Shown here: piece by piece, positions 1 to 42,600 of the stretch
Layout: each line of letters opens with the position of its first letter
Numbering within the stretch: the stretch's first letter is position 1
Source: Candidatus Jorgensenbacteria bacterium CG03_land_8_20_14_0_80_38_39
GTDB lineage: Bacteria > Patescibacteriota > Minisyncoccia > UBA6257 > GWB1-50-10
Direction: 5' to 3'
DNA length: 46,013 nt
NCBI GenBank assembly: GCA_002781185.1
Contig: PEUU01000025.1
Location: 1-46,013 of the forward strand
Notes under the pieces: generated by a model
What the model was told of the DNA's origin: nothing
The model's database searches: none
Seen by the model: only the letters and a program-made list of their open reading frames with translations
Program-made: the position numbers and the translations under genes

Positions 1-240
1 CCGAAGTCCGCCAGCAGGCGGATAAACTCCGCTCCCGCCGCCCTGCTCGTTCAGAGCAGAACCCAGCAAAAAAGTTTCCCTTTCCTTTTAGAAGAAAAGA
101 TCGGCGCGCGCAAATTAAAAAATGTGAAGAAAACTTTTTTGCGGGGTGGCGATCCGCCAGCTGGCGGAGAGCGGCGGCGGGGCGGAGCGTCAAAGTTCGC
201 AGTCCGGATTTTGCTCAAAGAAAGTTCGGATTTCGTCCAA
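1..240 (+). ncRNA. GC-rich structured region; unidentified candidate ncRNA, possibly truncated by the window edge
   Basis: A strongly GC-rich island in an AT-rich genome. Hairpins ccgccagcaggcgg (8..21), ctgctc-gttca-gagcag (43..59) and the palindrome ccgccagctggcgg (154..167). Long-range complementarity between ctccgctcccgccgcc (27..42) and gcggcggcggggcggag (171..187). No convincing CDS. Strand and identity are uncertain. Confidence 0.25.
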
Positions 241-3043: not shown

Positions 3044-4813
3044 TTATTTTAACATTTTTAACATCTTCTCCAATGGCCAGTAGTTAATAATGTCTTTTTT
3101 TTCAGCCCAACCCCGCCGGGCCTGACTAATGCCATATTCCAAATAAGGTAAATGGGTAACAGAATGAGCGTCAGAATCAATGGCAATTTTTACTCCGGCT
3201 TTTATAGCCAAATGGATATGGTCGTCTTTTAAATCCAGACGATTGGGGTAAGCGTTAACTTCCAAAACCGTTTTGGTTTTTTGGGCGGTTTTAATAATTT
3301 CTTCAATATCAAATTCGTAAGCTTCTCTTTTTTGAATGATCCGGCCCGAAGGATGAAATAAAATATCAACATTAGGATTGCTTATGGCTTTTTTAATTCT
3401 TTCGGTCTGCTCTTTTTTGGAAAGATTAAAATAAGAATGAATAGAAACTCCCACGACATCTAATTTGGCCAAAACTTCGTCCTTAATATCCAAACTGCCG
3501 TCTTTTAAGATATCGCATTCTGTGCCTTTTAGAATCTTAAATGGTTCGACTCGGCTCACCACGGGTTTTGAATTTTGTTCGTCAATTGACGAATTGAATT
3601 TTAAATTAAGCCGGTCAATTTCTTTTATTTGCTCCAGAAGTCTTTTTTCATCAAGACCATTGGCCATGGCCAGTCTTTTGGTGTGGTCGGTAATAGCAAT
3701 ATACTCCAAACCTTGCGCCATAGCTGCTTTAGCCATTTCTTCAATGGAATTTACGCCATCGGTCCAATTGGTTTGAACCTGCAAGTCCCCTAAAATTTCT
3801 CCGTAATCAATAAGTTTGGGAAGCTGATGGCGTCGAGCCAGTTCAATTTCTCCTTTGTTTTCCCGCATTTCCGGTTCAATGTAATCCAAGCCTAATTTTT
3901 CATAAATTTCTTCCTCGGTTTCACCGGCAATTTGTTTTTTTCCTTTAAACAAACCGTACTCATTCAGCTTGTAACCTTTCTTAAGGGCGATTTCCCTTAA
4001 AGCGACATTGTGGTCTTTAGAACCGGTGAAATAACTCAGAGCCGCGCCGTAAGATTTTTTTTCTACCACTCTCAAGTCAACATCCAAACCATTGTTTAAC
4101 TGAACCGCTGATTTAGTTAAACCCTTGGCATAAACTCTGGCGACTTCGGGCAAGGAAACAAAATAATCCATTACTGGCCGGGAATCGTTGGAAATAACTA
4201 AAATGTCCGCGTCACCAATAGTTTCTTTCCAGCGCCTGACCGAACCAGCCGCCACTAATCTTTCAACTTCTTTCAATTTTTTCAAACGCTCTTCCAAACT
4301 GCGAATCAATGACCTGGTAAACCCCAAAATAAAACGGCCGCTGGATTTTTTCAAAAACTTGATGCCTTCTAAAATGTTTTCTTCGGTTTTTTCCCCAAAG
4401 CCTTCAATTTTTCTGATTTTTCCGGTTTGGGCGGCTTTTTCCAAATCTTGAATATTTTTAATGCCCAGGGCTTCGTAAAGTTTTTTTAGGCTCTTTGGAC
4501 CTAAACCTTCAATTCTTCTTAGGGAAATTAAATCTAGGGGCGTTTGTTTTTTTAACTTTTCATAATACTTCAAATGGCCGGTTTTAATGAGCTCTTCAAT
4601 TTTTTCGGCAATGGAAACGCCGATTCCCGGAATGTCTTCAATAGCTTTTAAACCGCCATTTTTATAAATACTTTCCACTTCCTCTTCTAATTCTTCAATA
4701 ACCTCAGCAGCTTTTTCGTAAGCTCGAGGTTTAAAAGCCACGCTTTGCATTTCTAAATATTCCCCTATTTCTTTTAAAATTTCGGCAATTTGATGATTGC
4801 TAATCATACTCAC
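3044..4813 (-). CDS. polX: Family X DNA polymerase with C-terminal PHP domain (PolX)
   Basis: 589 aa. N-terminal HhH motifs (IPGIGVSIAEKI, IEGLGPKSLKKL), a Pol-beta-like core (GSVRRWKETIGDADILV), and a PHP domain (DLQVQTNWTDG...ITDHT...HSYF...DSDAHS). Confidence 0.85.
   Translation of the reverse strand: MSMISNHQIAEILKEIGEYLEMQSVAFKPRAYEKAAEVIEELEEEVESIYKNGGLKAIEDIPGIGVSIAEKIEELIKTGHLKYYEKLKKQTPLDLISLRRIEGLGPKSLKKLYEALGIKNIQDLEKAAQTGKIRKIEGFGEKTEENILEGIKFLKKSSGRFILGFTRSLIRSLEERLKKLKEVERLVAAGSVRRWKETIGDADILVISNDSRPVMDYFVSLPEVARVYAKGLTKSAVQLNNGLDVDLRVVEKKSYGAALSYFTGSKDHNVALREIALKKGYKLNEYGLFKGKKQIAGETEEEIYEKLGLDYIEPEMRENKGEIELARRHQLPKLIDYGEILGDLQVQTNWTDGVNSIEEMAKAAMAQGLEYIAITDHTKRLAMANGLDEKRLLEQIKEIDRLNLKFNSSIDEQNSKPVVSRVEPFKILKGTECDILKDGSLDIKDEVLAKLDVVGVSIHSYFNLSKKEQTERIKKAISNPNVDILFHPSGRIIQKREAYEFDIEEIIKTAQKTKTVLEVNAYPNRLDLKDDHIHLAIKAGVKIAIDSDAHSVTHLPYLEYGISQARRGWAEKKDIINYWPLEKMLKMLK
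3541..3593. repeat. Copy A of an in-frame GC-rich palindromic element, inside polX
   Basis: atggttcgacTcGgctcacca...gggttttgaatttt...aattgacgaa shares three blocks with 15949..16013. It encodes ...SSIDEQNSKPVVSRVEPF... on the minus strand. Confidence 0.7.
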
Positions 4814-9671: not shown

Positions 9672-9674
9672 AGG

Positions 9675-9746
9675 CGTCCCTACGAGGAATCGAACCCCGA
9701 TCTCAAGCTCCGGAGGCTTACGCTCTATCCATTGAGCTATAGGGAC
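9675..9746 (-). tRNA. tRNA-Arg (anticodon CCG), no encoded CCA
   Basis: A 72-nt cloverleaf read by hand: acceptor GTCCCTA/TAGGGAC, D arm GCTC-AATGGATA-GAGC, anticodon arm TAAGC-CTCCGGA-GCTTG (U33, CCG, G37), T arm CGGGG-TTCGATT-CCTCG, discriminator G. Confidence 0.9.
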
Positions 9747-15332: not shown

Positions 15333-15749
15333 TTAAATGTCAAGGGTCAATATGACTTCAAAAATACCGCGCTTATTCTGCTCAATTTCGGCTTCATGAT
15401 AAGTAACCGCCTTTATATCTTCGTCAAAATAGTCAATAGGAAAACCGAAAATTTGGGTTTCTAAACTTTTTGGCGAAAATTTCAAAAACTTTATCCGGGG
15501 ATAAATTTTTCTGTTTATTTCGCTCCGGCTCAAAACCTCGTTCAAGAAATTCACTAAAAGAATGTTAATGTCTGGCGCCTCAATAACAATCTTTTCGTAT
15601 TCCCCGGGCCGCTTCTTGAATTTTTCATATTCCGGATAAAGGATAGCGGCTAACGCCAAAGCGGCACTTTGAAAAACTTCTTCTTCTGTATGACCCTGCA
15701 CTCTTATCCGCATATCGGCCGTATGCTCTAAAATTTTAAAAGGTATCAT
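15333..15749 (-). CDS. Archease (RtcB activator)
   Basis: 138 aa. The N-terminal FKILEHTADMRIRVQG motif and C-terminal VKAVTYHE are typical of archease. Clustered with rtcB. Confidence 0.85.
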   Translation of the reverse strand: MIPFKILEHTADMRIRVQGHTEEEVFQSAALALAAILYPEYEKFKKRPGEYEKIVIEAPDINILLVNFLNEVLSRSEINRKIYPRIKFLKFSPKSLETQIFGFPIDYFDEDIKAVTYHEAEIEQNKRGIFEVILTLDI

Positions 15750-17071
15750 AAATTAATCTCTTGAAGCGCTTTTTCCAAAGCCCGGCGTTCGCTCCAAGGA
15801 ATTCTTTGACCGCGAGCCAAGTGAATCCAGGGCTCGCTGCCCTTGCCGGTAACAATAACAGCATCGCCTTTTTTCGCCAGACTAACGGCCTTTTTAATAG
15901 CTTCTTGGCGGTCAATGATTTTATAAATATTGCGAATTTTGAATTTTGATGGTTCGACCCTGCTCACCATCAACCCTGAGCGTTGTCGAAGGGTTGAATT
16001 TTGAATTGACGAAAATCCCAATTCGATTTCGTCTAATATAATTTCTGGATTTTCGTCATAAGGGTCCTCGTTTGTTAAAATAATGGTTTGACAATACTCA
16101 GCGGCAATTTCTCCCATTACCGGCCGTTTCCACTTGTCCCGGCCGCCGCCAGCTGAACCTAAAACGCAAATTATTGAATGAGAAGAATGCTTCGCCTTAA
16201 TCATTGACTTTAGAGCTTGATAAACTTTTTCTAAAGAATCAGGGGTATGGGCATAATCAATTACGGCTAAAAATGGCGATTTTTGAATAAATTCAAAACG
16301 GCCGGGAAGACCGGAAAAATTATTTAAAGTATCTAAAATTATTTGCCCATCGATATTTTGAGAACGAGCAAAACTTACCGCCGCCGCGGCGTTTTCCAAA
16401 TTAAAATCCGCCAATAACCAATCGCCGATTCTTTGTCTGCCTTCCTCGGAATTTAAATTATAACGGCCCCCCAACTCTTCTTGAATAAACCTTCCCCGGC
16501 TAAAAAACACAATTTCTTTAGCCGGGATTGACCTTGTCGCCTCAACAAAGAAATGCTGATTACTATCATCTTCATTGATAAAAAAATATTTTTTCGGTTT
16601 TTTGGAATTGGCCAAAGAGCGGAAAAATCGGATTTTGGCTTCCCGGTATTTTTCAAAAGAACCGTGAGCTTCAATGTGTTCGGGCATTAAATTCAAAAAA
16701 ACTGCCGCGTCCCAATCAATGAATTTATGACGAAATTGGATGACTCCCTGAGAAGTAACTTCTATTAAAGCATACTGGCAACCGGCCTTAACCGCTCGCC
16801 GGAGAAATTTTTGGATAAAAAATCGGCCAGGCATAGTATTATTAGTCAAATTCAGCTCTTTTTTGTCATTTATTTGAAAATAAACCGAGGAACTCATAGC
16901 TATTTTCTTATTAGCCCGCCTTAAAATTTCCGCCATTAGCTCCAAAACCGTTGATTTACCTTTGGTGCCGGTAACGCCGACAACAAATAAACGCCGACTG
17001 GGAAAACCGAAAAAAATATTGCCAAAAAACGCCATTACCCAATGATAAATTGAATGAACTAGAGAAACCAT
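15746..17071 (-). CDS. murE: Mur ligase family protein, MurE-like
   Basis: P-loop GVTGTKGKSTV, DYAHTPDSL, NEDPYDENP and TGKGSE motifs in MurE order. It lacks a long N-terminal domain and carries the in-frame element near the C-terminus. Confidence 0.65.
   Translation of the reverse strand: MVSLVHSIYHWVMAFFGNIFFGFPSRRLFVVGVTGTKGKSTVLELMAEILRRANKKIAMSSSVYFQINDKKELNLTNNTMPGRFFIQKFLRRAVKAGCQYALIEVTSQGVIQFRHKFIDWDAAVFLNLMPEHIEAHGSFEKYREAKIRFFRSLANSKKPKKYFFINEDDSNQHFFVEATRSIPAKEIVFFSRGRFIQEELGGRYNLNSEEGRQRIGDWLLADFNLENAAAAVSFARSQNIDGQIILDTLNNFSGLPGRFEFIQKSPFLAVIDYAHTPDSLEKVYQALKSMIKAKHSSHSIICVLGSAGGGRDKWKRPVMGEIAAEYCQTIILTNEDPYDENPEIILDEIELGFSSIQNSTLRQRSGLMVSRVEPSKFKIRNIYKIIDRQEAIKKAVSLAKKGDAVIVTGKGSEPWIHLARGQRIPWSERRALEKALQEINL
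15949..16013. repeat. Copy B of the in-frame GC-rich palindromic element, inside the murE-like gene
   Basis: atggttcgacCcTgctcacca tcaaccctgagcgttgtcgaa gggttgaatttt g aattgacgaa. Internal hairpin TTCGAC-ccT-GCTCA...TGAGC-gtt-GTCGAA. It encodes ...SSIQNSTLRQRSGLMVSRVEPS... on the minus strand. Confidence 0.7.
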
Positions 17072-19936: not shown

Positions 19937-20067
19937 GGAACTATTTTCCCCCTGTTTTTTTGCCGTCGGCGCCTTAAAACCGCCCGACCGCCAGGCAAAC
20001 GTTGACGTTTCAAAAATCCGTGAGTTCTCTTTCTTTTTCTTTTTTTAGGTTGAAATGTTTGCGACAT
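19933..20067 (-). CDS. rpmH: 50S ribosomal protein L34
   Basis: Hand-translated 44 aa: [44 protein letters not shown]. Matches the conserved L34 pattern (TFQP...R.HGF..R). Below the track cutoff. Confidence 0.9.
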
Positions 20068-20117
20068 TTAATTATTACTATTATAGCAGAAAGTTCCCTT
20101 ATTTGAAAATAGAATTT

Positions 20118-20126
20118 TTCTCCACA
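20118..20126. promoter_or_regulatory. DnaA-box-like 9-mer upstream of dnaA
   Basis: ttctccaca differs at one position from the consensus TTATCCACA. Confidence 0.4.
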
Positions 20127-20213
20127 GTTAATTAACACTTAACCAACAAAAAAGCTTTTTAAAGGTATTGCCAAGGTTTAAAATGTCTTTATGATTAAGA
20201 TAAATTAAGACCG

Positions 20214-20243
20214 TTGAATTATTCAACACCCTCAAATTATAAT
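20214..20243 (+). promoter_or_regulatory. Candidate dnaA promoter
   Basis: TTGAAT (20214..20219), an 18-nt spacer, then TATAAT (20238..20243), about 30 nt upstream of the dnaA ATG. Confidence 0.35.
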
Positions 20244-20274
20244 TAAACTAAATAAAATTAAAACTTTTTAAGCT

Positions 20275-21663
20275 ATGATGAATAATTACAATGAACTTTG
20301 GAAAGCGGTTTTAGGAGAAGTTGAGGTCCAAATTTCCCGACCAAATTTTTTAACTTGGCTAAAACAAAGTCAAATTGTCGGCAAAGACGAAAAAGAAAAC
20401 ACCATTTTTGTTGGTTTGCCCAACAATTTCGCCAGAGAGTGGGTAAAAAATAAATACCATAAAATTATTTTTGGTTCTTTGCGCAATTTTGATAACTCTA
20501 TTAAGGGCGTGGAATATGTAATTTTTAATCCCGCCGGAACTGTTTTCTCGCCAATTTTAGAAAAAAAGTCAAAGACAGGCCTTGCTTCTGCTAATAAAGC
20601 TTCTCTGCCTCTTTTAGAGTTGAAAATTGATCCCAAAACCAATCTTAACCCTCGTTATACTTTTGAATCGTTTGTCGTCGGCTCTTCCAATGAACTAGCT
20701 CACGCCGCCGCCATGGCTATTGTCAAAGACATCGGTCAAAAATATAATCCCTTTTTTGTTTACGGCGGCGTTGGTTTGGGCAAAACCCATCTTCTTCAAG
20801 CGATGGGAAATGAAATTAAAAAATCTTATCAAAATAAAATCAATGTTTTTTACACCACTTCCGAAAAATTTGTTAGCGATGTTGTTTGGGCAATCCGCAA
20901 CAAACAAATGGACGACATTAAAAAGAAATATCGCAACGTTGACGTTTTAATTATTGACGACATTCAATTCATCGGCGGCAAAGAAAGAAGTGAAGAAGAA
21001 TTTTTCCATACTTTTAACGTTCTCTATGAAAACAATAAGCAAATTGTTATTTCTTCTGACCGGCCGCCGGGGGCCATTCCAACCTTAACCGAAAGGCTGC
21101 GTTCCCGTTTTGAAGGCGGTATGATTGCCGATATTACCTACCCCGATTATGAAATGAGGCTGGCTATTTTAAAAAATAAAGTTCAAGAAAGGAGCATTTT
21201 TATAGAAGACAAAATCCTGGAGCAAGTTGCTTTCAAAGTTCAGAAGAATATTCGGGAATTGGAAGGGGTTTTAAATAAAATCATTTTTTACCAAGAGTAT
21301 AAAAAAGAAAAAATTGACAATCAAAAATTAGAAGAAATTATTATTGAAGCCAGTCAAACTTCTTCAAAAAACGTCACCATTAACGATATTATTAAAGCGG
21401 TGACCGATTTTTATGAAGTTTCGCCTAATGAAATTGCCAACAGGAACCGCAAGCAAGAAATTGTTGAGCCCCGGCAAATAATTATGTACTTGTTAAGGGA
21501 AATTTTAAAACTTTCCTATCCTCATATTGGGGAAAGGCTGGGCAAAAGAGACCATACCACCGCCATTCACTCTTGCGAAAAAGTTGCCCGTGACATTAAC
21601 CGCAATGCGGCTTTTAATCAAAAAATAATGATGATTAAAGAAAAAATATACAAAATGTCATAA
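20275..21663 (+). CDS. dnaA: Chromosomal replication initiator protein DnaA
   Basis: 462 aa. AAA+ Walker A GGVGLGKTHLLQA, Walker B LIIDDIQF, and the C-terminal DNA-binding signature (DHTTAIHSCEKV). Confidence 0.97.
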   Translation: MMNNYNELWKAVLGEVEVQISRPNFLTWLKQSQIVGKDEKENTIFVGLPNNFAREWVKNKYHKIIFGSLRNFDNSIKGVEYVIFNPAGTVFSPILEKKSKTGLASANKASLPLLELKIDPKTNLNPRYTFESFVVGSSNELAHAAAMAIVKDIGQKYNPFFVYGGVGLGKTHLLQAMGNEIKKSYQNKINVFYTTSEKFVSDVVWAIRNKQMDDIKKKYRNVDVLIIDDIQFIGGKERSEEEFFHTFNVLYENNKQIVISSDRPPGAIPTLTERLRSRFEGGMIADITYPDYEMRLAILKNKVQERSIFIEDKILEQVAFKVQKNIRELEGVLNKIIFYQEYKKEKIDNQKLEEIIIEASQTSSKNVTINDIIKAVTDFYEVSPNEIANRNRKQEIVEPRQIIMYLLREILKLSYPHIGERLGKRDHTTAIHSCEKVARDINRNAAFNQKIMMIKEKIYKMS

Positions 21664-21820
21664 CCCGTGGATAACTTGAAGATTATTTTAAAAAAATTTA
21701 ATTTGTTTTATCTTTATCAACAACTTATTAAATACTTATTTTCTTTAAAAAGGATAAAAAAACATTTATCAATCTGCTTAAAAAATTATTAACCATTTTA
21801 TTCACAGTTCTACAACAACA
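21664..21820. promoter_or_regulatory. Candidate oriC segment in the dnaA-dnaN spacer
   Basis: Three 9-mers each one mismatch from TTATCCACA: cgtggataa (21666..21674, reverse orientation), ttatcaaca (21714..21722) and ttattcaca (21798..21806). Very AT-rich tracts lie between them (gattattttaaaaaaatttaatttg). Confidence 0.5.
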
Positions 21821-22924
21821 ATGAAATTAATAATATTAAAAAATAATTTATTGGAAGGACTAACAACTTTGGAAAAAGCTGTGGGAAACAATACAAATTT
21901 ACCAATTCTTAGAAATTTTTTAATTCAAACAGAAGGTAATAAAATAACTCTTATTTCTACTGACCTTGAAATAGCGGTTAAATATTTTCTTTCGGGAAAA
22001 ATAATTGAAAATGGAAAATTAACCGTCCCTTTTTTTATTGTCAATACCATTGCCAAAAATTTAACCAGCGAAAGAGTTGATTTAGAAACAAAAGAAAAAA
22101 AATTACTTATTAAAACCGACAATTATGAAGCCACTATTCAAGGTCAAGACCCGGAAGAATTTCCTATAATTCCCAAAATTAGCAATCAAGATAAATTCTT
22201 TAAATTTAAACTGGCGACTTTTAAAGAAAATTTAGCTAAAGTTTTAGCCGCCAGCCAATATTCTAATATTCGGCAAGAAATTAATGGCGTATTTTTTAAG
22301 TATGAAGAAAAAACCTTAAAATTAGCCGCGACTGACAGTTTTCGTTTGGCTGAAAAAACATACAATCAAGACCAACTTGAAAGTAATTTTGAGAAAATAA
22401 GTTTTATTCTTCCCTTGAAAACTGCTTATGAAATTTTAAGAATTCCCGACGGTCAAGAAATAATTGTTTTTATTGATGCCAATCAAGTCCTTTTTAAAAC
22501 AGAAAATCAGGAAATTATTTCTCGTTTAATTGACGGTCATTTTCCTGATTATCAATCAGTTATTCCTAAAGAATTTAAAACGGAATTAAGAATCAACCGT
22601 GAAGAGTTAATTAAGGCAATAAAACTAACAAGCGTTTTTTCCGGCGGAACCAATGATATTTCTTTAAAAATCAGTGATAATAAAAAGTTTTTAGAAATTT
22701 ATTCCAATAGCGACCAGTTAGGTGAAAATCGTTATTTAATCCCGGTGAAATTAAAAGGCGAACCATTTTCTTTGGTTCTTAATTGGCGTTATTTTATTGA
22801 TGGTTTAAAAATTTATCAAACCGAAGAAATAGATTTGGGTATTAATGAAGCCGACCGCCCTTTACTTATCAAATCTTCTAACGATTCTTCTTTGTTTTAT
22901 ATTTTAATGCCCTTGAAAAGTTAA
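21821..22924 (+). CDS. dnaN: DNA polymerase III beta sliding clamp
   Basis: 367 aa immediately after dnaA. Typical clamp N-terminus (MKLIILKNNLLEGL) and C-terminus (...LMPLKS). Confidence 0.95.
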   Translation: MKLIILKNNLLEGLTTLEKAVGNNTNLPILRNFLIQTEGNKITLISTDLEIAVKYFLSGKIIENGKLTVPFFIVNTIAKNLTSERVDLETKEKKLLIKTDNYEATIQGQDPEEFPIIPKISNQDKFFKFKLATFKENLAKVLAASQYSNIRQEINGVFFKYEEKTLKLAATDSFRLAEKTYNQDQLESNFEKISFILPLKTAYEILRIPDGQEIIVFIDANQVLFKTENQEIISRLIDGHFPDYQSVIPKEFKTELRINREELIKAIKLTSVFSGGTNDISLKISDNKKFLEIYSNSDQLGENRYLIPVKLKGEPFSLVLNWRYFIDGLKIYQTEEIDLGINEADRPLLIKSSNDSSLFYILMPLKS

Positions 22925-32174: not shown

Positions 32175-33842
32175 TTATGACCATTCAAGGGGACCGGTTA
32201 ATCTTTCTACCTCAGCCAAAGAAGTTATGCCCTGCAGCGCTTTTAGCAAGCTGTCTTCCTGCATTGTTACCATTTCTTGTTTTTTGGCGGCGGCTTTTAA
32301 ATCAATTTCTGTTGGGTTTTGGTAAATTAACTCTTCCATTTTTTGGTTAATGACAAAAAGTTCAAAAATGGAAGTTCGGCCTTTATAACCAAAGCCGCCG
32401 CATTGGTCGCAGCCCCGAGGTTCATAAATTTTAAAATTTTCTAGAGGTTTTTTATCAACGCGGCTGGGCAAATTTTTAATAAAGTTTTTAATTTTTTCGT
32501 TTAGAGATTGGTCAATCCTTTTTTCAACTTTGCAGACCGGGCAAAGGAGCCGAATTAATCTTTGGGCAATAACCAAACTTAAGGCCGGACCCAAAATTTG
32601 ACTTTTAACGCCTAAATCTATTAAACGCGGAATCGCGCCGACAGCATCGTTGGTATGAAGAGTGGAAAAAACCGTGTGGCCGGTTAAAGAAGCGTTCATG
32701 GCAATTTCCGCTGTTTCTTTGTCTCTGATTTCGCCCACCAAAACCACATCCGGGTCTTGGCGCAAAATTGACCTGAGACCGCTGGCAAAAGTATAGCCGG
32801 CGCCCGGGTCAACTTGGGTTTGAGAAATTCCAGACAAATGATATTCTACCGGGTCTTCAATGGTGATAATTTTGATTTCCGGTTTGAAAATAAACTTTAA
32901 AAAAGCGTAAAGAGTGGTTGTTTTGCCCGAACCGGTCGGCCCGGTATTTAAAATTAAACCATTGGGTTTTTTAATTTCTTTTTTGACAATTTCCAAATCG
33001 TCGGTCCGCCAGCCCAATTCTTCCAAATTAACTTTTAAAGATTCTGGGTCCAGAATTCTTAAAACCACTGTTTCGCCCCATTCCGAGGGAATAACCGAAG
33101 CTCTGATTTCAATTTCCCGACTAGTTGTTTTGATGGTAAAACGTCCGTCTTGAGGTTGGTCGTGAATGTTAAGTTTTAAATTGGAAAGAAGCTTAAGGCG
33201 AGAAATAAGGGACTGGTAAGTTTTTAGAGGAAGTTTTTCATAAGCCGAATGAAGCAAGCCGTCAATTCTTAACCGCAGGAGGCCTTTTTCTTCAGTTGGC
33301 TCTAGATGAATATCCGAGGCTTTCAAAGATAAAGAGCCGGCTAAAATAATTTCTAAAATTTGGGAAGTTAATTTGCTTTTGGATTCGTCAATCGTTTGGT
33401 TTAGAGCCGTTAAAGTTTTAATATTTTCCTGAAAGGTTTTGAGTCTTTGAGGTTCAATATCAACTTGACCGCTAATTTCTTTCCCCTCTTCAACCGCGTA
33501 TTGGTAATAATTCCAAACCGCTTTGAGACCGGAAAGGGAAGTAATAAAAATATGGAGATTATATTTTTGTTTTAAGCGAATAATTAGTTTTTGGGTTTCA
33601 GTATTTTGAGGATCAAAAGCCGCCAAAACTAAATCGTTTTTGATTGCTTGAAGCCCGGCGGCTAAACTTTTTTTAGCTTCTTCTTCGGGAATAAGGGTTA
33701 GGGCTTTAATTTCAATCGGCGTTTTGCCGCCGACCGGGTTTAAATAAGGCAAATGGAGTTTAGCTGCTCGGCGTTGGGCGTCTTGCTCTTCAGCTTTGCG
33801 CCGCTGTTTTGTTAGTTCTTCTCCTAAGTTAAAATCAGCCAT
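32175..33842 (-). CDS. GspE/PilB-family secretion ATPase (type II secretion/type IV pilus assembly)
   Basis: 555 aa. Walker A GPTGSGKTTTL, Asp box, Walker B VVLVGEIRD, His box, and a tetracysteine motif CPVC...CDQC typical of PilB/GspE. Confidence 0.85.
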   Translation of the reverse strand: MADFNLGEELTKQRRKAEEQDAQRRAAKLHLPYLNPVGGKTPIEIKALTLIPEEEAKKSLAAGLQAIKNDLVLAAFDPQNTETQKLIIRLKQKYNLHIFITSLSGLKAVWNYYQYAVEEGKEISGQVDIEPQRLKTFQENIKTLTALNQTIDESKSKLTSQILEIILAGSLSLKASDIHLEPTEEKGLLRLRIDGLLHSAYEKLPLKTYQSLISRLKLLSNLKLNIHDQPQDGRFTIKTTSREIEIRASVIPSEWGETVVLRILDPESLKVNLEELGWRTDDLEIVKKEIKKPNGLILNTGPTGSGKTTTLYAFLKFIFKPEIKIITIEDPVEYHLSGISQTQVDPGAGYTFASGLRSILRQDPDVVLVGEIRDKETAEIAMNASLTGHTVFSTLHTNDAVGAIPRLIDLGVKSQILGPALSLVIAQRLIRLLCPVCKVEKRIDQSLNEKIKNFIKNLPSRVDKKPLENFKIYEPRGCDQCGGFGYKGRTSIFELFVINQKMEELIYQNPTEIDLKAAAKKQEMVTMQEDSLLKALQGITSLAEVERLTGPLEWS

Positions 33843-34020
33843 TTATTTTAAAATAGCGGTTTTTTCTCTGATTGACAAGACCTTAGAGGTTGAATTCAAG
33901 AAGCTAACGCAACAAGATTTAATGCGCGGTTGTATCTAATAACAACACGATCGTAGTCTTATTAGATATTAAAATTACAAAGATAAACTTGCCTAGATAT
34001 TTTAAAGTTTTTTATTCTCC

Positions 34021-34049
34021 TTGACTTCTGTTTGTTGATTTGGTATAAT
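34021..34049 (+). promoter_or_regulatory. Consensus sigma-70 promoter with an extended -10
   Basis: TTGACT (34021..34026), a 17-nt spacer, then TATAAT (34044..34049) preceded by TGg. Followed by the SD taggaggg (34088..34095), 7 nt before ATG 34103. Confidence 0.65.
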
Positions 34050-34102
34050 GTGGTTAGTTAACGAACCTTGAAAATTTGGTATAAGAATAGGAGGGATTTG
34101 CC

Positions 34103-35053
34103 ATGAAAGCGCTTTTTGGTTGTTTGCTTGTCTTGGTTTTGTTCAGCAGTGGTTGTTACACTGTAACAATCCCAAGTGAAGGTGAAACTTATGAATCTTA
34201 TGATTCAACAGTTTTACAAGTTTCACAATCTGCAATCCAGTTAGGGTTTTGGTGTTGCCCAAGTTACTGGAGTTACCAGTACCCTTACTATGGCTATGCT
34301 CGGGGGTATTGGTGGAACGGCTGGCCAGGGGGTTCATATCCTCTGTATAGAGGATATGGATACGCTAATGGCTGGCTCTGGCATAATGGTTGGCCAGTGG
34401 CTTGGAGTGGCTACGGTTACGGCTACGGTTACGGCTACGGATATCCTTATGCCTATGGATCTGTCCTGAGCGGAGCGAATGGATGGGGCGATTGGGATAA
34501 CCAGAACTGGTTTGACCAAAGTCGCTGGCGAACAAGAAATTTCGGCGCCACTCGCGGTAGCGGCTTAAGAGGAACTGATCGTGCTAGCGCAGGAAGCGGC
34601 AGTTCTTTTACTGGAGAGCGAGCTTCTCGCCCGGGTTCAACTCGGAGCGGTTTTTCTAGCCCAAGTTGGGGTAGGACTAGAGAGCGAGCACGAGCAGTTG
34701 AAGTGGCTAAGTCATCGCGACCTTCAAGGACAGAAACTACTAGAACTTCGCCTCATAGAGGTCGTAACGGCACGGTGCGTCAGCAGCCCGGTGCTCAGTC
34801 ACAGAAACCAGAAATCAGGTCACCTCAGAAGCCGCGGGATGAACGTAATCGCCAGCGGGATTACCGGAATTATTCTCCGAGTCATTCCTCCGGTGACAGT
34901 CGTTCAACTAGCGGCCATCCAGCTTATTCTCCGCCGAGCTATCCCCGTTCTTCAAGCGGGCGCCCAAGTTATTCACCGACACCGAGGAGTAATTCGGGTC
35001 GGAGCGCTCTCTCAACACCAAGAGGAAGTTTGGGCTTTACTCGCCGGCGATAA
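34103..35053 (+). CDS. Low-complexity putative lipoprotein: W/Y/G-rich N-half, R/S/P-rich C-half
   Basis: Signal peptide with a lipobox-like sequence, MKALFGCLLVLVLFSSGC. The (GY)n run GYGYGYGYGYGYPYAYG is encoded by ggctacggttac repeats (34408..34443). The C-half contains SR/RS/YSP motifs. Visibly GC-richer than its flanks, with a strong promoter, SD and terminator. Confidence 0.6.
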   Translation: MKALFGCLLVLVLFSSGCYTVTIPSEGETYESYDSTVLQVSQSAIQLGFWCCPSYWSYQYPYYGYARGYWWNGWPGGSYPLYRGYGYANGWLWHNGWPVAWSGYGYGYGYGYGYPYAYGSVLSGANGWGDWDNQNWFDQSRWRTRNFGATRGSGLRGTDRASAGSGSSFTGERASRPGSTRSGFSSPSWGRTRERARAVEVAKSSRPSRTETTRTSPHRGRNGTVRQQPGAQSQKPEIRSPQKPRDERNRQRDYRNYSPSHSSGDSRSTSGHPAYSPPSYPRSSSGRPSYSPTPRSNSGRSALSTPRGSLGFTRRR

Positions 35054-35060
35054 TGTTTTT

Positions 35061-35110
35061 ACTCCGTTGTTTGAGTTTCGACTCGGCAACGGAGTTTTTA
35101 TTTTTTCTTT
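35061..35110 (+). terminator. Rho-independent terminator of the lipoprotein gene
   Basis: ACTCCGTTG-ttt-GAGT-TTCG-ACTC-gg-CAACGGAGT (a two-tier stem with a UUCG tetraloop), followed by tttttatttttttctttt. Confidence 0.7.
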
Positions 35111-35145
35111 TGCCCGCTTAGTTTAAAGTGATTTAGATAAAATTT

Positions 35146-35172
35146 TTAGATAGATTAGATAGATTAGATAGA
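35146..35172. repeat. Tandem 9-mer repeat (ttagataga x3)
   Basis: Three perfect head-to-tail copies. A related atttagataa lies at 35131..35140. Confidence 0.8.
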
Positions 35173-35200
35173 CAGCAAAAAAACAAAGAAAAAATCTTAT

Positions 35201-35234
35201 CCTCAATCTTGTATCATATGATACAAGATTGAGG
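35201..35234. repeat. Perfect 34-bp palindrome
   Basis: cctcaatcttgtatcat|atgatacaagattgagg is perfectly self-complementary. It lies downstream of the already terminated lipoprotein gene. Confidence 0.85.
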
Positions 35235-35279
35235 ACAGTCATTTTTATCTTATTTTACTCTATCGTCTATTCTATTTTG

Positions 35280-35367
35280 TTCTTCCACTGTGGTTGAACT
35301 ATTTTATTTTACTCTTTCATTTTTCAATTGGACTATTCTATTTATTCTTCCATTGTGGTTGGACTAT
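35280..35367. repeat. Pair of 23-nt direct repeats upstream of yidC
   Basis: ttcttccactgtggttgaactat (35280..35302) and ttcttccattgtggttggactat (35345..35367) match at 21 of 23 positions. The surrounding ~60-nt units also resemble each other (ttttactct...tattctattt). Confidence 0.75.
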
Positions 35368-35414
35368 GAAGAAAATAACTTGGCTTTTTTCAAAGAAATC
35401 ATTAGAATAAAGCA

Positions 35415-36113
35415 ATGGCTTATTTGTATCAAACTTATATTTATCAGCCGATTTTACAAGCTTTAATTTTTATTTACCATAATTTAGCTTTTCACGATTT
35501 AGGGCTGGCAATTATTATTTTGACGACTTTAATCAGAATAATTCTTTTGCCCTTGTTTTATAAAGGCGCCAAAGACCAAACTTTGCTTCAGCGACTTTCT
35601 CCTCAAATTAAAAAAATTCAGGGTGACCATAAAGACAATAAAGAAAAACAAGCCAAGGCCTTAATGAATTTTTACCGCGAGCATCGGGTTAATCCTTTTT
35701 CCGGAATTTTGCTTTTAATTTTGCAGCTCCCGATTATTATCGCCTTATATCAAGTCTTTTTGAAAGGTTTGTCAGCGGAGATTTTTGGCAATCAAATGTT
35801 TTTGGGTCTGATTAATTTAGGGCAAAAAAATCTTTGGCTGGCTGCTTTTGCCGCTTTAATTCAGTTCTTTTACGGTCGGCTTTCAATGGCTCCTCAGCCG
35901 GCCGGTCAATCAGGACAAGCAGTTAATCAAAAAACCGCTTTTAATCCTCAAGCCTCAGTAACCAAAATGATGACTTGGATGGGTCCATTTTTGACACTTT
36001 TTATTTTGGTTTCTTTGCCGGCTGCCATTGGCTTGTACTGGGGAATTTCCACGGTATTTTCCTTGGCTCAGCAACTGGTCATTAATAAAAAGATTCATCA
36101 GCAATTTAAATAA
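35415..36113 (+). CDS. yidC: Membrane protein insertase YidC (short, Gram-positive-like form)
   Basis: 232 aa. Has the conserved R in TM1 (TTLIRIILLPL), the KMQxLQPxxxxIQ-like QRLSPQIKKIQ, NPFSG, and the C-terminal LPAAIGLYW. Confidence 0.9.
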   Translation: MAYLYQTYIYQPILQALIFIYHNLAFHDLGLAIIILTTLIRIILLPLFYKGAKDQTLLQRLSPQIKKIQGDHKDNKEKQAKALMNFYREHRVNPFSGILLLILQLPIIIALYQVFLKGLSAEIFGNQMFLGLINLGQKNLWLAAFAALIQFFYGRLSMAPQPAGQSGQAVNQKTAFNPQASVTKMMTWMGPFLTLFILVSLPAAIGLYWGISTVFSLAQQLVINKKIHQQFK

Positions 36114-36122
36114 ATTAAGTTT

Positions 36123-36557
36123 ATGGAAAATTCTTCAGAAAAAATAAAAACCTTAATTAATTTAATGGGATTTCCCGAGGCCGAAGTTTTGATTGATAAA
36201 GAACATCGGCGGATTTCCCTTTTAATAGAAGACGAACTGGTCAACAAAAAAATTCCCTGGCTTTTGCCGCCCCTGGAACTTTTAATCAATTTAATTATTA
36301 AAAAAGAAGGAGAACCATTTAATTTTTCCCTTGACCTTAATTATTATCGCAAGGAAAGGGAAAGATTAATTGTGGAACTGGCTCGGGCCGCGGCTCATAA
36401 GGCAATGTTGACCAAGCAGTCGGTTGAATTGCCGCCAATGAATGCTTACGAAAGGCGTTTGGTTCATTTGGAAATTGCCACTCATCCTTCGCTTAAAACT
36501 GAAAGCCTTGGTCAGGGGAAAGAACGCCATGTGGTCATCAAACACTTGGAAGAATAG
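36123..36557 (+). CDS. Jag/KhpB-type R3H-domain RNA-binding protein
   Basis: R3H motif region ERRLVHLEIATHPSLKTESLGQGKERHVVI. Canonical position directly after yidC. Confidence 0.8.
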   Translation: MENSSEKIKTLINLMGFPEAEVLIDKEHRRISLLIEDELVNKKIPWLLPPLELLINLIIKKEGEPFNFSLDLNYYRKERERLIVELARAAAHKAMLTKQSVELPPMNAYERRLVHLEIATHPSLKTESLGQGKERHVVIKHLEE

Positions 36558-36572
36558 ATGTTATTCAAAATA

Positions 36573-36614
36573 AAAAATTAAAAACCAAAAATAAAAAATA
36601 CAAAAAACACAAAC
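36573..36614. repeat. Left arm of an A-rich inverted repeat bracketing the four-helix-bundle gene
   Basis: aaaaattaaaaaccaaaaataaaaaatacaaaaaacacaaac resembles the reverse complement of 37027..37066 (aaaaatgaaaaaccaaaaaccaaaaactaaaaacataaac). Low complexity, so chance similarity is possible. Confidence 0.5.
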
Positions 36615-36632
36615 GCAAAAATGTAAAAATTT

Positions 36633-37019
36633 ATGGTTGATAGAAAAAATCTAAAGCGAGAATTTAAGCTCAGAATTTATCGCTATGTGATACGACTTTT
36701 AAAATTTTTAGTTAAATTACCAAATGAGCCGGTAACCCGCGAAATTAAAAGTCAACTGACCAGAAGCGGCACATCAATTGGCGCAAATTATTTTGAAGCC
36801 GAAGGAGCCAGTTCTAAAAAAGACTACTAGAATTATTTCGCCATCGCCTTAAAATCAACTAATGAATCAAAATTTTGGTTGGCTGTTTTGAAAGATAGCA
36901 ATTTACTACCAGAAGAATTAAAATCAGAATCTGAACATCTTTTAAAAGAAACGGGTGAAATTGCTAACATTTTTGCCTCAAGTATTTTAACTATGAAAGG
37001 TAAAAGAAAAATTTTTTAA
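36633..37019 (+). pseudogene. Four-helix-bundle protein (23S rRNA IVS-protein family) interrupted by an in-frame TAG
   Basis: The first part, ...LTRSGTSIGANYFEAEGASSKKDY, stops at TAG 36828..36830. The same frame continues NYFAIALKSTNESKFWLAVLKD...GEIANIFASSILTMKGKRKIF to TAA 37017..37019. Both halves together match the family pattern and the ~125-aa length. Confidence 0.7.
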
Positions 37020-37026
37020 GTTTTTA

Positions 37027-37066
37027 GTTTATGTTTTTAGTTTTTGGTTTTTGGTTTTTCATTTTT
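37027..37066. repeat. Right arm of the inverted repeat bracketing the four-helix-bundle gene
   Basis: gtttatgtttttagtttttggtttttggtttttcattttt; see the left arm at 36573..36614. Confidence 0.5.
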
Positions 37067-41335: not shown

Positions 41336-41347
41336 TATTTTTTTTGT

Positions 41348-42031: not shown

Positions 42032-42117
42032 TGATTATATTTTGAGAGTGTTGATAAGACTTCGGCTGACATGCTCGGGATGAAACTATTGAATAGTTAT
42101 TCAATAGTTTTACTTTA

Positions 42118-42597
42118 TCAATAATTGACTTTTTTGACAATTTTCTTTTCGCCGGTTTTTTCCCGAATTAAACCGTAGCGAGATGGCGTTTTTTGAACCG
42201 GAGGATGTTTCGGGGCGGTCATAATTCTTTGAGCCGCGGCTTTTAGTTTTTCTTGAAAACTCAATTGTTTCCGGTTTTTTTCTAAAAAGTCTTCGGGGAT
42301 TTCTAAGGTGGTTTGAGGAATTTCTCTTCCCCAAAGATAAATTTTCGGCCGCCAAAAATACTTAATGGCCGAGATTAAAATAAGAGGAAAACTTTGGCCG
42401 TTAATTTTTAAAAAAGCAAAAGCCAAAGCCAGAACTCCGACAATTAAAGTGATAATGAACCAAACAAAAAAATTAAAAATAGAAAAAGCCAAGAAGCTGA
42501 TGCCGGCGGCCGCGCCGATGTAAAAAAATTGGACCAAAGTTAAAGGGCCGACGATTTTCGGTTTGGTTTCAATAAATTGAGGAACTTGGAATTCCAT
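42118..42597 (-). CDS. PrgI-family (VirB3-like) small membrane protein
   Basis: 159 aa. N-terminus FQVPQFIETKPKIVGPLTLVQFFYIG followed by two TM helices, matching the PrgI-family signature and its position upstream of VirB4. Confidence 0.55.
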   Translation of the reverse strand: MEFQVPQFIETKPKIVGPLTLVQFFYIGAAAGISFLAFSIFNFFVWFIITLIVGVLALAFAFLKINGQSFPLILISAIKYFWRPKIYLWGREIPQTTLEIPEDFLEKNRKQLSFQEKLKAAAQRIMTAPKHPPVQKTPSRYGLIREKTGEKKIVKKVNY

Positions 42598-42600
42598 TTT

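What the first reader, a model, noticed from the sequence alone, without database searches (positions are those of the whole stretch)
15949..16013. Longer copy of the in-frame palindromic element in the murE-like gene, with an intact hairpin
This copy retains a 21-nt segment missing from the PolX copy. With it the element folds as TTCGAC-cct-GCTCA-(10 nt)-TGAGC-gtt-GTCGAA, a two-tier hairpin that is GC-rich against an AT-rich gene. It lies in the C-terminal domain between DEIELGF and IYKIIDRQEAIKKA. MurE proteins, as I recall them, have a short loop in the corresponding region. The PolX copy looks like a decayed or deleted derivative, which suggests an older insertion there.
Basis: partly seen in the sequence, partly recalled or inferred. 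Interest (0 to 1): 0.65.

Follow-up and report, generated by a model that had tools for sequence, protein, structure and literature searches.

The report
Selfish double-hairpin repeat inside murE
A 48-base repeat made of two small DNA hairpins sits in frame inside the essential cell-wall gene murE of a tiny groundwater bacterium. It belongs to a very widespread repeat family tied to small GIY-YIG nuclease genes and is found in essential genes of such bacteria about as often as chance placement predicts.

Summary
At window 15946-15997 murE (minus strand, Candidatus Jorgensenbacteria) carries a 48-nt, 16-codon insertion that 119 homologues below 63% identity lack. Solved MurE structures have about 7 residues where this protein has 30. 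An AlphaFold model leaves the insert as a low-confidence coil.

It is one copy of a large family defined by a 13-14-nt word, TTCGAC-N2-3-GCTCA. The word sits in the loop of short stems whose arms covary. The murE copy is the "double" form, two opposed stem-loops sharing a middle arm. I found at least 119 metagenome loci with this form, mostly on low-GC contigs.

About 59% of the copies lie in frame in genes such as ValRS, GluRS, ArgRS, PriA and ScpA, against 64% for random windows. Four reading frames are used, so the DNA is conserved and not a peptide.

Single-unit copies flank small GIY-YIG nuclease genes, on both sides in some loci, in several phyla including Patescibacteria. This resembles the published Ssn/NTS architecture, although the element fails the published SRM search pattern.

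The PolX copy is a 24-nt half-unit. Both window copies sit in (AAATTCA)n-like sequence encoding QNSKFKI. It is a new variant of known kinds.

The parts
15746..17071 (-). Host gene murE (UDP-MurNAc-tripeptide synthetase, 441 aa). It is intact and reads through the element.
   Evidence: TIGR01085 at 311 bits, Mur_ligase_M and Mur_ligase_C. AlphaFold model has pLDDT 90.9 and pTM 0.90.
15946..15997 (+). The whole double element: TTGATGG-L-CCATCAACCC-L'-GGGTTGA. The net insertion is 48 nt, or 16 codons (TLRQRSGLMVSRVEPS). Its boundaries are ambiguous within the TTGA found at both ends (15946-15949 and 15994-15997).
   Evidence: Alignment with 120 MurE homologues. Removing 48 nt leaves SSIQNS|KFKIRNIYK, 15 residues between GF and IIDR, the same length as in the closest homologues. 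The same 42-nt core occurs in at least 119 metagenome loci.
15953..15966 (+). Word L, TTCGACCCTGCTCA. This is the family-defining motif TTCGAC-N3-GCTCA and forms the loop of stem-loop 1.
   Evidence: Invariant in 62 aligned copies, in part because the search required it. It is also the motif next to GIY-YIG genes.
15946..15973 (+). Stem-loop 1: TTGATGG / CCATCAA around word L.
   Evidence: DNA fold -5.4 kcal/mol, z -4.2. Three covarying pairs across 62 copies; 0 of 500 shuffles reach the observed value.
15977..15990 (+). Word L', TGAGCGTTGTCGAA. This is the same motif in reverse complement and forms the loop of stem-loop 2.
15970..15997 (+). Stem-loop 2: TCAACCC / GGGTTGA around word L'. It shares TCAA with stem-loop 1.
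   Evidence: DNA fold -6.8 kcal/mol, z -3.6. It is the stem chosen in the RNA MFE of the coding strand. Four covarying pairs; 0 of 500 shuffles reach the observed value.
15934..15949 (+). Left flank: heptamer tandem GAATTTT GAATTTT GA, encoding ..KFKI.. on the coding strand.
   Evidence: Period-7 enrichment in the flanks of 103 copies, 0.354 against 0.265 in background.
15994..16009 (+). Right flank: heptamer tandem TTGAATT TTGAATT GA, encoding ..IQNS.. on the coding strand. With the left flank it forms the 12-nt direct repeat GAATTTTGAATT.
15992..15997 (+). Codons 359-360 (TCA ACC on the - strand), the outer arm and junction. This is a polymorphism hot spot: S359L, S359stop and T360A in near-identical population variants.
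3542..3565 (+). PolX copy: a 24-nt half-unit, TGG-TTCGACTCGGCTCA-CCACGGG, giving PVVSRVEP in frame in the PHP domain of PolX (gene 3044..4813, -).
   Evidence: Alignment with 120 PolX homologues reading ..QNSKF(R/K)ILKG without it.
3578..3593 (+). A 16-nt perfect palindrome, TTCGTCAATTGACGAA, next to the PolX copy. It accounts for 4 further extra codons (SSID). It is part of a 33-nt module also found beside the ValRS copy (L135/L239).

Best explanation
The segment is a non-autonomous, selfish DNA repeat. It is one 48-nt "double" unit of a pan-bacterial hairpin-repeat family whose signature is the word TTCGAC-N2-3-GCTCA, held in the loop of a short stem with variable, covarying arms.

What is shown:
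- It is an insertion relative to every homologue below 63% identity.
- It is repeated in this community and across many phyla.
- Its DNA is conserved, and no peptide is.
- Its two stem-loops are kept by compensatory changes.
- Its unit length is a multiple of three (48 nt, or 45 nt in a sister class).
- In low-GC, mostly Patescibacteria-like contigs it lies in genes about as often as random positions do.
- It expands and contracts in tandem: 2, 3 or 4 units in one ScpA gene.
- Single-unit copies flank genes for small (about 90-105 aa) single-domain GIY-YIG nucleases, in some loci on both sides and in inverted orientation.

What is inferred:
- The word-in-a-loop hairpin is the single-stranded-DNA recognition site of such a nuclease, as shown biochemically for SsnA and NTS in Neisseria (PMC11893778).
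- Cutting beside the hairpin, followed by repair, template switching or slippage at short homologies, spreads and amplifies the unit. The outer arm TTGA(T/A) and heptamer-periodic A/T-rich sequence would supply those homologies.

In murE the unit landed in (AAATTCA)n-like sequence encoding IQNS|KFKI, in a surface loop between helix 342-359 and strand 382-384 of the C-terminal domain. There it is translated as a disordered 16-residue loop and tolerated. No nuclease gene lies in about 65 kb around it, so this copy is most likely an orphan passenger.
For: - Insertion: only the same-species cluster has it among 120 MurE homologues. PDB MurE chains 4bub and 7d27 have 7 residues where this protein has 30. 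In the AlphaFold model residues 361-370 have pLDDT 52, against 90.9 overall.
- Family: at least 120 genome loci in many phyla and at least 119 metagenome loci with the exact double architecture.
- Local repetition: contig depth over 15952-15993 rises about 14-fold in groundwater runs, and contigs break there.
- Structure: stem-loop 1 and stem-loop 2 have 3 and 4 covarying pairs, with 42 and 65 cells changed on both sides against 16 and 24 in shuffles (0 of 500). The slid controls collapse.
- DNA-level conservation: 58 of 115 copies are inside spanning ORFs, in four different frames and both orientations.
- Coding placement: in low-GC loci, 42 of 71 copies of the 48-nt class and 6 of 10 of the 45-nt class are in ORFs, against 322 of 500 random windows. 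None of the 5 copies whose length is not a multiple of 3 are in ORFs.
- Hosts: by my reading of the sequences these are ValRS, GluRS, ArgRS, PriA, AroA, a MiaB-like protein and ScpA.
- Tandem polymorphism: 4, 3, 2 and 2 units between identical flanks.
- GIY-YIG link: unbiased clustering of neighbouring ORFs gave the small GIY-YIG protein as the only family that recurs across unrelated loci from different phyla. It matches PF01541 at 61-75 bits. The word lies within 13-125 nt of the gene in L010, L057, L060, L103 and L145.
- Independent check: in loci fetched by the protein, not by the motif, the word is present in L242 (Levybacteria, a Patescibacteria lineage), L253 and L250, a variant in L243, other repeats in L254, and none in L252.
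- Published precedent for hairpin repeats cut as ssDNA by small GIY-YIG nucleases and for the repeat-gene-repeat architecture: PMC11893778.
Against: - No GIY-YIG gene is in the window or in about 19 kb of extra flank from the same genome, and the rest of the genome could not be searched.
- The element does not match the published SRM search pattern, while the NTS control does.
- The GIY-YIG ORFs were not shown to belong to the Ssn clade (cd10448). Their nearest solved relatives are UPF0213 proteins.
- Only about 5 of 240 motif-fetched loci carry the nuclease gene.
- A nuclease alone does not explain insertion, and no empty-site allele or excision joint was found.
- The sequences used for covariation are partly related by descent.
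Confidence: 0.68

Rival explanations
1. It is an ordinary MITE- or REP-like element moved by a transposase (DDE, or an HUH/RAYT enzyme acting on hairpins). The two words would be terminal inverted repeats and the flanking direct repeat a target-site duplication. The GIY-YIG association would be incidental or secondary.
For: - The words L and L' form a 14-bp imperfect inverted repeat around a 10-nt spacer.
- The copy is flanked by direct repeats: TTGA, or the 12-nt GAATTTTGAATT.
- About 10% of copies have direct repeats of 9 nt or more, against about 1% in permutations.
- REPIN/RAYT systems have a similar logic (PMC3116915).
Against: - No transposase or RAYT family recurs near copies in 1.7 Mb of loci.
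- The "duplications" covary with the middle arm of the element, which a target duplication cannot do.
- The long direct repeats are all heptamer tandems and are present in only a minority of copies.
- A 62-nt insertion (50 + 12) would break the murE frame, whereas 48 nt fits the homologue alignment.
Confidence: 0.15
2. The insert is kept because it acts at the RNA or translation level. The mRNA hairpin could pause ribosomes or regulate murE, or the 48 nt could be bypassed between the identical TCA codons at its two ends, as in phage T4 gene 60.
For: - The insertion is bounded by TCA A..TCA A.
- The coding-strand RNA forms the stem-loop 2 hairpin at the 5' junction.
- One population variant (L121) has a stop codon (TAA) exactly at that junction.
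- Mobile elements that encode bypass signals are known (10.1101/2022.08.31.505936; title and abstract only).
Against: - Copies are open in four frames in dozens of unrelated genes and never need bypass.
- Copies between genes are equally common.
- The RNA fold is not significantly stable in context (z -1.8).
- The stop variant is a single low-coverage 1.6-kb contig.
Confidence: 0.05
3. The 16 residues are a lineage-specific functional loop of MurE, selected at the protein level, and the DNA repeat is coincidental.
For: The insert is in frame, is kept in all 441-aa variants of the species cluster, and sits near the C-terminal domain that binds the incoming amino acid.
Against: - The same DNA is read in four frames and two orientations in other genes, giving unrelated peptides.
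- It is predicted to be disordered.
- Three of the eight known amino-acid changes in the species hit its first two codons, one of them a stop.
- It is absent from all homologues below 63% identity.
Confidence: 0.04

Closest known systems
NTS / Ssn-related motifs (SRM) with SsnA, a small GIY-YIG single-strand-specific nuclease (Chenal et al. 2025, PMC11893778)
   Same: - Short hairpin-forming repeats present in many copies.
- Genes for about 95-aa single-domain GIY-YIG proteins flanked by the repeat, in some loci on both sides.
- Wide spread across phyla.
- Different nuclease sub-clades have different cognate hairpins (L254 and L243 against L103, L242 and L253).
   Different: - The sequence does not fit the published SRM pattern (0 matches, while the NTS control matches).
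- Here the loop is conserved and the stem varies, whereas in NTS the stem (TTCCCGCG/CGCGGGAA) is conserved.
- NTS is rarely inside genes (2% in N. meningitidis, per the paper), whereas about 59% of these copies are.
- A doubled 48-nt in-frame unit and tandem arrays are not described there.
- Cleavage was not tested here.
Rickettsia palindromic elements (RPE; Ogata et al. 2000 and 2002, as summarised in PMC10969869)
   Same: Palindromic repeats inserted in frame into unrelated housekeeping genes of a small, reduced genome. They are translated as extra loops that are compatible with the fold.
   Different: - RPEs are about 100-150 bp, are reported to encode a conserved peptide, and are specific to Rickettsia.
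- This unit is 48 nt, is read in four frames, and occurs in Patescibacteria and, as single units, in many phyla.
- Sequence similarity to RPE consensus sequences was not tested.
- Ogata 2002 called protein-coding palindromes unique to Rickettsia.
REP / REPIN elements with RAYT transposases (PMC3116915, PMC3337134)
   Same: Short palindromes, doublets in inverted orientation that form a larger hairpin, a cognate gene flanked by the repeats, and within-genome amplification.
   Different: - REPs are extragenic.
- Their enzyme is an HUH tyrosine transposase, and none was found near these copies.
- The sequence and loop/stem logic differ.
IS200/IS605 single-strand transposition with guide-target pairing (own knowledge; also cited in PMC11893778)
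   Same: Hairpins recognised as ssDNA. The idea that a short internal sequence pairs with the target could explain why the middle arm matches both flanks.
   Different: There is no TnpA or TnpB. The element is 48 nt with no coding capacity. The pairing idea is untested here.

Membership tests
Ssn-related motif (SRM) sensu Chenal et al. 2025 | Matches the published degenerate search pattern HGTCWYN(0-2)YYVSBRHN(0-5)WNVSBRGN(0-2)RNCYNB | tested here: not met
   The regex matches the NTS control. It matches none of the element forms, gives 0 hits in the window, and gives 0 hits next to any of the 11 GIY-YIG loci.
Ssn-related motif (SRM) sensu Chenal et al. 2025 | A 20-50-nt inverted repeat likely to form a hairpin | tested here: met
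   Stem-loops 1 and 2 have 7-bp stems with 3-4 covarying pairs. Fold z-scores are -4.2 and -3.6.
Ssn-related motif (SRM) sensu Chenal et al. 2025 | Flanks genes for small single-domain GIY-YIG nucleases, often on both sides | tested here: met
   Met for the family: L010, L057, L060, L103, L145, L242, L253 and L250. Not met for the window copy itself: there is no such gene in about 65 kb.
Ssn-related motif (SRM) sensu Chenal et al. 2025 | The associated nuclease belongs to the Ssn clade (CDD cd10448) | not tested
   CDD was not available. The ORFs match Pfam PF01541 only and no NCBIfam model. Their nearest PDB relatives are UPF0213 proteins 1ywl and 1zg2.
Ssn-related motif (SRM) sensu Chenal et al. 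2025 | Bound and cut as single-stranded DNA by the cognate nuclease | not testable with these tools
   This needs biochemistry.
Rickettsia palindromic elements (RPE) | A palindromic repeat inserted in frame in unrelated protein-coding genes | tested here: met
   murE and polX in the window. Across the family, 58 of 115 copies lie in spanning ORFs, including aminoacyl-tRNA synthetases, PriA and ScpA.
Rickettsia palindromic elements (RPE) | Sequence similarity to an RPE family consensus, and about 100-150 bp in length | tested here: not met
   The unit is 48 nt (45 nt in a sister class), so the length criterion is not met. Similarity to RPE consensus sequences was not tested because no RPE sequences were on hand.
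Rickettsia palindromic elements (RPE) | Encodes a conserved peptide in one frame | tested here: not met
   Four frames are used, giving INPSTxLRxDGExSRTI, DGSTxLTINPExSRRID, STLRLRSGLMVSxVEPS and LMVRLRSPSxLSxVEGL.
REP / REPIN | Extragenic location | tested here: not met
   59% of low-GC copies are inside ORFs, close to the 64% seen for random windows.
REP / REPIN | A cognate RAYT (HUH Y1 transposase) flanked by the repeats | tested here: not met
   No such family appeared among recurrent neighbours in about 240 loci. Absence from whole genomes was not tested.
MITE | Terminal inverted repeats plus a target-site duplication of fixed length | tested here: inconclusive
   L and L' are inverted repeats. 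The flanking direct repeats vary from 3 to 12 nt and covary with the middle arm.
MITE | A parent insertion sequence with matching ends | tested here: not met
   No transposase gene was seen beside copies. The only flanked gene is the small GIY-YIG ORF.

The most novel reading that the evidence does not exclude
In the gene-dense genomes of Patescibacteria, a hairpin repeat served by a small GIY-YIG single-strand nuclease has evolved a doubled unit of exactly 16 (or 15) codons, open in four of six frames. This lets it colonise and expand inside essential genes as freely as between them. Its insertion sites would be chosen by pairing between the unit's middle arm and A/T-rich, heptamer-periodic target DNA. 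That would make it a second, independent and much more widespread case of "protein-coding palindromes", so far held to be unique to Rickettsia, with a candidate enzyme attached.
Probability: 0.3. Interest if true: 0.8.

Novelty: new variant of a known kind. Interest (0 to 1): 0.62.

Why it matters
- In-frame colonisation of essential genes by palindromic selfish DNA would not be a Rickettsia curiosity. It would be common in the Candidate Phyla Radiation (Patescibacteria), whose genomes have almost no intergenic space.
- It gives a concrete, testable pairing of nuclease and site: the small GIY-YIG gene and the TTCGAC-N2-3-GCTCA loop. This extends the newly described Ssn ssDNA-nuclease family to a different hairpin logic, with a conserved loop and a free stem.
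- It explains many odd GC-rich "loops", spurious peptides and contig breaks in assembled Patescibacteria genomes.
- It offers a natural catalogue of protein loops that tolerate 16 to 64 extra residues.

Tried and rejected
- **Known RNA families.** Rfam gave nothing for the element (E-value mode) or for 12 related loci at gathering threshold, apart from tRNAs. A tRNA-like reading of GGTTCGA..CCA was considered. ARAGORN finds only tRNA-Arg at 9673-9746, and by my own inspection the stems do not fit a T-arm.
- **Literature.** Searches for the translated peptides and for the DNA words found no paper. No paper links Rickettsia palindromic elements with GIY-YIG. None of the six papers found by the one Candidate Phyla Radiation search appears, from its title and abstract, to describe such in-frame repeats.
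- **Supplements.** The supplementary files of the Ssn paper are not held.
- **Empty site.** All 12 members of the murE cluster and all PolX variants carry the inserts. Logan contigs of four groundwater runs show no joint skipping the element.
- **Other copies in this genome.** There are only two in the 46-kb window. About 19 kb of extra flank added one doubtful one-mismatch word in ksgA.
- **Target-site duplication.** A 12-nt duplication model was rejected because a 62-nt insertion breaks the frame and the repeats are heptamer tandems.
- **Immediately adjacent arms in single units.** The result is modest, 22 arms of 3 bp or more against 8 expected, because CCATGAC is itself part of a consensus. 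The cleaner test came from the double copies.
- **Search limit.** The last protein search, with a GIY-YIG query, returned only 36 hits because of its word filter.
Full report
**1. What is at the coordinates**

The ORF at window 15746..17071 (minus strand, 441 aa) is a MurE-type Mur ligase. It scores 311 bits against TIGR01085 and matches Mur_ligase_M and Mur_ligase_C. Cluster members are named Candidatus Jorgensenbacteria from groundwater (PJA95046.1, PIW97530.1).

The sequence TTCGACCCTGCTCA-CCATCAACCC-TGAGCGTTGTCGAA is at 15953-15990. It is 55% G+C in a gene of 40%. The protein reads ..DEIELGF SSIQNS TLRQRSGLMVSRVEPS KFKIRNIYKIIDRQ...

The second copy is in the PolX gene (3044..4813, minus strand) at 3541-3566. 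It shares ATGGTTCGACyCkGCTCACCA and lacks 21 nt of the murE copy. No further copy is in the window.

**2. It is an insertion**

Among 120 MurE homologues, only the same-species cluster has the segment. The nearest others (at most 63% identity) have 15 residues between GF and ILDR, where the window has 31. Removing 48 nt gives SSIQNS|KFKIRNIYK. This has the same length as the nearest homologues' LETVTPRLKMRNYFK and aligns with it.

Solved MurE structures (4bub, 7d27) have 7 residues where the window has 30. An AlphaFold2 model built from 74 sequences has pLDDT 90.9 and pTM 0.90. It leaves residues 360-381 as coil, with pLDDT 52 for residues 361-370, between helix 342-359 and strand 382-384.

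In PolX, 110 homologues at 64-72% identity read ..LNSKFKxQNSKF(R/K)ILKGTECD. The window reads LNLKFN-SSID-EQNSK-PVVSRVEP-FKILKG. That is a 24-nt insert plus 12 further nucleotides that complete a perfect 16-nt palindrome, TTCGTCAATTGACGAA.

**3. Both sites are the same kind of sequence**

The murE insert lies in ATT CAA AAT TCA ^ AAA TTC AAA ATT. The PolX insert lies in CAA AAT TCA AAA ^ TTT AAG ATT.

Insert-free homologues carry NSKFQI or NSKFRI at the same places. Examples are MurE P0033, P0071, P0074 and P0106, and PolX P0145, P0180, P0226 and P0243. This sequence is a tandem of the heptamer AAATTCA, which translates cyclically as KFKIQNS. The window has GAATTTT repeated on the left and TTGAATT repeated on the right.

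Across 103 independent copies from metagenomes, the flanks are enriched in period-7 self-similarity (0.354 against 0.265; other periods show much less excess, 0.02-0.05). About 10% of copies have direct repeats of 9-12 nt made of such heptamers, against about 1% in permutations.

**4. The family**

The pattern ATGGTTCGACNNNGCTCACCA hit at least 120 loci in GTDB species genomes. My own estimate of the chance expectation is about 17. The hits span Bacteroidota, Omnitrophota, Patescibacteria lineages (Saccharibacteria, Peregrinibacteria, Microgenomates, Jorgensenbacteria), Nostoc, Chloroflexota, Clostridia, spirochaetes and others.

The common denominator is the word TTCGAC-N2-3-GCTCA, closed by GG..CC or CC..GG.

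The window's architecture is x-ATGG-L-CCAT-x'-CC-L'-GG-x. A 32-specified-base pattern for it found at least 119 metagenome loci, giving 115 non-redundant copies. Most are on contigs of 34-47% G+C from groundwater and sediment. One (L202) is the murE copy itself in another sample.

In four groundwater runs that hold this genome, contig depth over 15952-15993 is about 14 times that of the flanks, and contigs break there. No Rfam family matches.

**5. Which hairpin is conserved**

I used a gap-free alignment of 62 distinct double copies with 8-nt flanks. The search did not constrain the flanks or the 4-nt middle segment.

- Stem-loop 1 (columns 4-10 with 25-31) has three covarying pairs: GC 33 / AU 23, UA 52 / CG 7, and UA 52 / CG 8.
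- Stem-loop 2 (columns 28-34 with 49-55) has four: UA 33 / CG 27, AU 50 / GC 9, AU 49 / GC 6, and CG 32 / UA 23.
- In both, 0 of 500 shuffles reach the observed number of two-sided changes or the covariation score, and the slid controls collapse.
Its 11 fixed pairs were imposed by the search, and its three free positions show no covariation (494 of 500 shuffles score at least as high).

For the window copy the three folds are close in energy: -5.4, -6.8 and -7.6 kcal/mol, each with z below -3.6. The ensemble is split among them. The two stem-loops share four bases, so they either compete or form on opposite strands.

**6. DNA is conserved, not a peptide, and coding DNA is not avoided**

Of the 115 copies, 58 lie in ORFs that span them by at least 40 codons on each side. 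They occur in both orientations and in four frames:

| Peptide form | Copies |
|---|---|
| INPSTxLRxDGExSRTI and its 45-nt sister | 28 |
| DGSTxLTINPExSRRID | 13 |
| STLRLRSGLMVSxVEPS (the window's frame) | 10 |
| LMVRLRSPSxLSxVEGL | 3 |
| other forms, on high-GC contigs | 4 |

In low-GC loci, 42 of 71 copies of the 48-nt class and 6 of 10 of the 45-nt class are in ORFs, against 322 of 500 random windows. The five copies whose length is not a multiple of three are all outside ORFs.

By my reading of their sequences, the hosts include ValRS (L135/L239), GluRS (L132), ArgRS (L208), PriA (L123), AroA (L170), a MiaB-like enzyme (L128) and ScpA (L130). Single units also sit in frame in Mur ligases and a transketolase-like gene of other Patescibacteria lineages.

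In the ScpA locus, identical flanks enclose 4, 3, 2 and 2 tandem 48-nt units in four samples. The unit therefore expands and contracts on population time scales.

**7. The associated gene**

I clustered all ORFs lying within 400 nt of a word across the loci. Apart from orthologous neighbourhoods, only one family recurs across unrelated loci from different phyla. It is a 90-105-aa single-domain GIY-YIG protein (PF01541, 61-75 bits) found in L010, L060, L103 and L145, with a truncated one in L057.

In L103 the gene is preceded by GGACATGG-TGAGCTTGTCGAA-CCATGATC and followed by TTCATGG-TTCGACTACGCTCA-CCATGTCC, which are inverted copies.

Loci fetched by the protein, not by the motif, give an independent check:
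- The word flanks the gene in L242 (Candidatus Levybacteria) and L253.
- Degenerate copies flank it in L250.
- A variant hairpin is present in L243.
- Other repeats are present in L254.
- None is present in L252.

No transposase family recurs near copies.

This is the architecture that Chenal et al. (PMC11893778) described for NTS-ssnA-NTS. They showed that SsnA and three homologues bind their hairpin repeat only as single-stranded DNA and cut just upstream of it.

The present word does not fit their SRM search pattern, which does match NTS in my control. I could not test whether these ORFs fall in their clade (cd10448). The nearest solved relatives are UPF0213 proteins.

**8. Mechanism proposed**

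Shown: the items in sections 2 to 7.

Inferred: the loop word in a free stem is the ssDNA recognition site of a cognate small GIY-YIG nuclease. Nicking beside the hairpin, followed by repair or template switching at short homologies, spreads the unit and changes its tandem number. The outer arm TTGA(T/A) and heptamer-periodic A/T-rich DNA would supply those homologies. Units of 48 or 45 nt, open in four of six frames, survive inside genes when they land in surface loops.

The murE copy is most likely an orphan passenger. No GIY-YIG gene is in the window or in about 19 kb of added flank from the same genome.

The PolX copy is either a hairpin-mediated deletion derivative or a single unit of the common ..CCAC(A/G)GG type.

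A third copy, in a ValRS gene (L135/L239), is identical to the murE copy over 57 nt. It is followed by a 33-nt module that also precedes the PolX half-unit. Whether it belongs to the same genome is not proven.

**9. Open points**

- Three of the eight amino-acid-changing differences among near-identical murE variants hit codons 359-360, at the outer arm: S359L, T360A, and a stop in ENA contig L121 that splits the gene into 358 + 74 aa.
- The middle arm matches both flanks. This would follow either from selection on both stem-loops or from choice of the target by pairing.
- No empty site was found.

**10. Comparison and verdict**

The element works like the SRM/NTS-Ssn system and like REPINs. 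It sits in genes like Rickettsia RPEs (about 150 bp, nearly half of them in ORFs; PMC10969869). It is not a member of any of them by the features I could test.

I rate it a new variant of known kinds. The single copy is ordinary selfish DNA. The family behind it is widespread, was not described in any paper I could find, and comes with a testable enzyme.

Noticed in passing
L121 (ENA ERZ27293344 k141_536158), corresponding to window 15992-15997: A population variant of murE has TCA ACC changed to TAA GCC at the 5' junction of the element. The stop splits the gene into 358-aa and 74-aa ORFs. Together with S359L and T360A in other variants, 3 of the 8 known amino-acid changes fall in two codons.
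   Followed up: partly
L122 (JGI 3300025826, Ga0210033_1050799), corresponding to window ~16033: This contig is identical to the window up to ..PEIIL. It then diverges into unrelated sequence about 35 nt upstream of the element, which could be a strain rearrangement or an assembly chimera.
   Followed up: no
window 1-211: A long G+C-rich imperfect inverted repeat lies in an apparently intergenic stretch at the window edge: CCGCCAGCAGGCGG..CTCCGCTCCCGCCGCC.. on one arm and ..GGCGGCGGGGCGGAG..CCGCCAGCTGGCGG on the other. There is no Rfam match. It may be another repeat family.
   Followed up: partly
MurE homologues P0041, P0052, P0053, P0060, P0065, P0073, P0104; PolX homologues P0151, P0192, P0205, P0231: Other Patescibacteria carry different extra segments in exactly the same two loops, for example SFAKASEDK, SASYGAGK and GGGSSFGGQSS. 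They look like translations of other G+C-rich repeats, so these loops appear to be recurrent landing sites.
   Followed up: no
L130, L137, L131, L142 (ScpA gene): A tandem array of the 48-nt unit has 4, 3, 2 and 2 copies between identical flanks in different samples. This is an in-frame minisatellite adding 32-64 residues to ScpA.
   Followed up: yes
window 3578-3593; L135/L239: The 33-nt module AAAATTCAAT(C/T)CGTCAA(C/T)TGACGAACAAAAT, with the small palindrome CGTCA..TGACG, accompanies both the PolX half-unit and the ValRS full unit. Its relation to the element is unclear.
   Followed up: partly
window ~32600-46013 (L246/L247): This stretch holds a block of conjugation or type-IV-secretion-like genes (TrbL_3, PrgI, TraC-like, TraG-type P-loop ATPase, T4SS pilin). 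In a sister contig (L247), resolvase and serine-recombinase genes and a RadC gene lie just beyond the end of the window.
   Followed up: no
L248/L249, about 9 kb upstream of the window start: The isoleucyl-tRNA synthetase of this genome is 1206 aa long, with a histidine-phosphatase (His_Phos_1) Pfam hit between two tRNA-synt_1 hits. A TaqI-like restriction gene, a methylase fused to LexA/S24 domains, and a ThsB-TIR gene lie nearby.
   Followed up: no
window ~20000-22000: GC skew changes sign from negative to positive near 21 kb. This could mark a replication origin or terminus.
   Followed up: no
L254 and L243: Other small GIY-YIG genes are flanked by different hairpin repeats (GTCATCCCGACCGGAGCGAAGCGGAGTGGAGGGAC.. 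and TGTCACATCGAGCCTGTCGAGATGCGACAG). Neither matches the published SRM pattern, which suggests many nuclease-hairpin pairs remain uncatalogued.
   Followed up: partly
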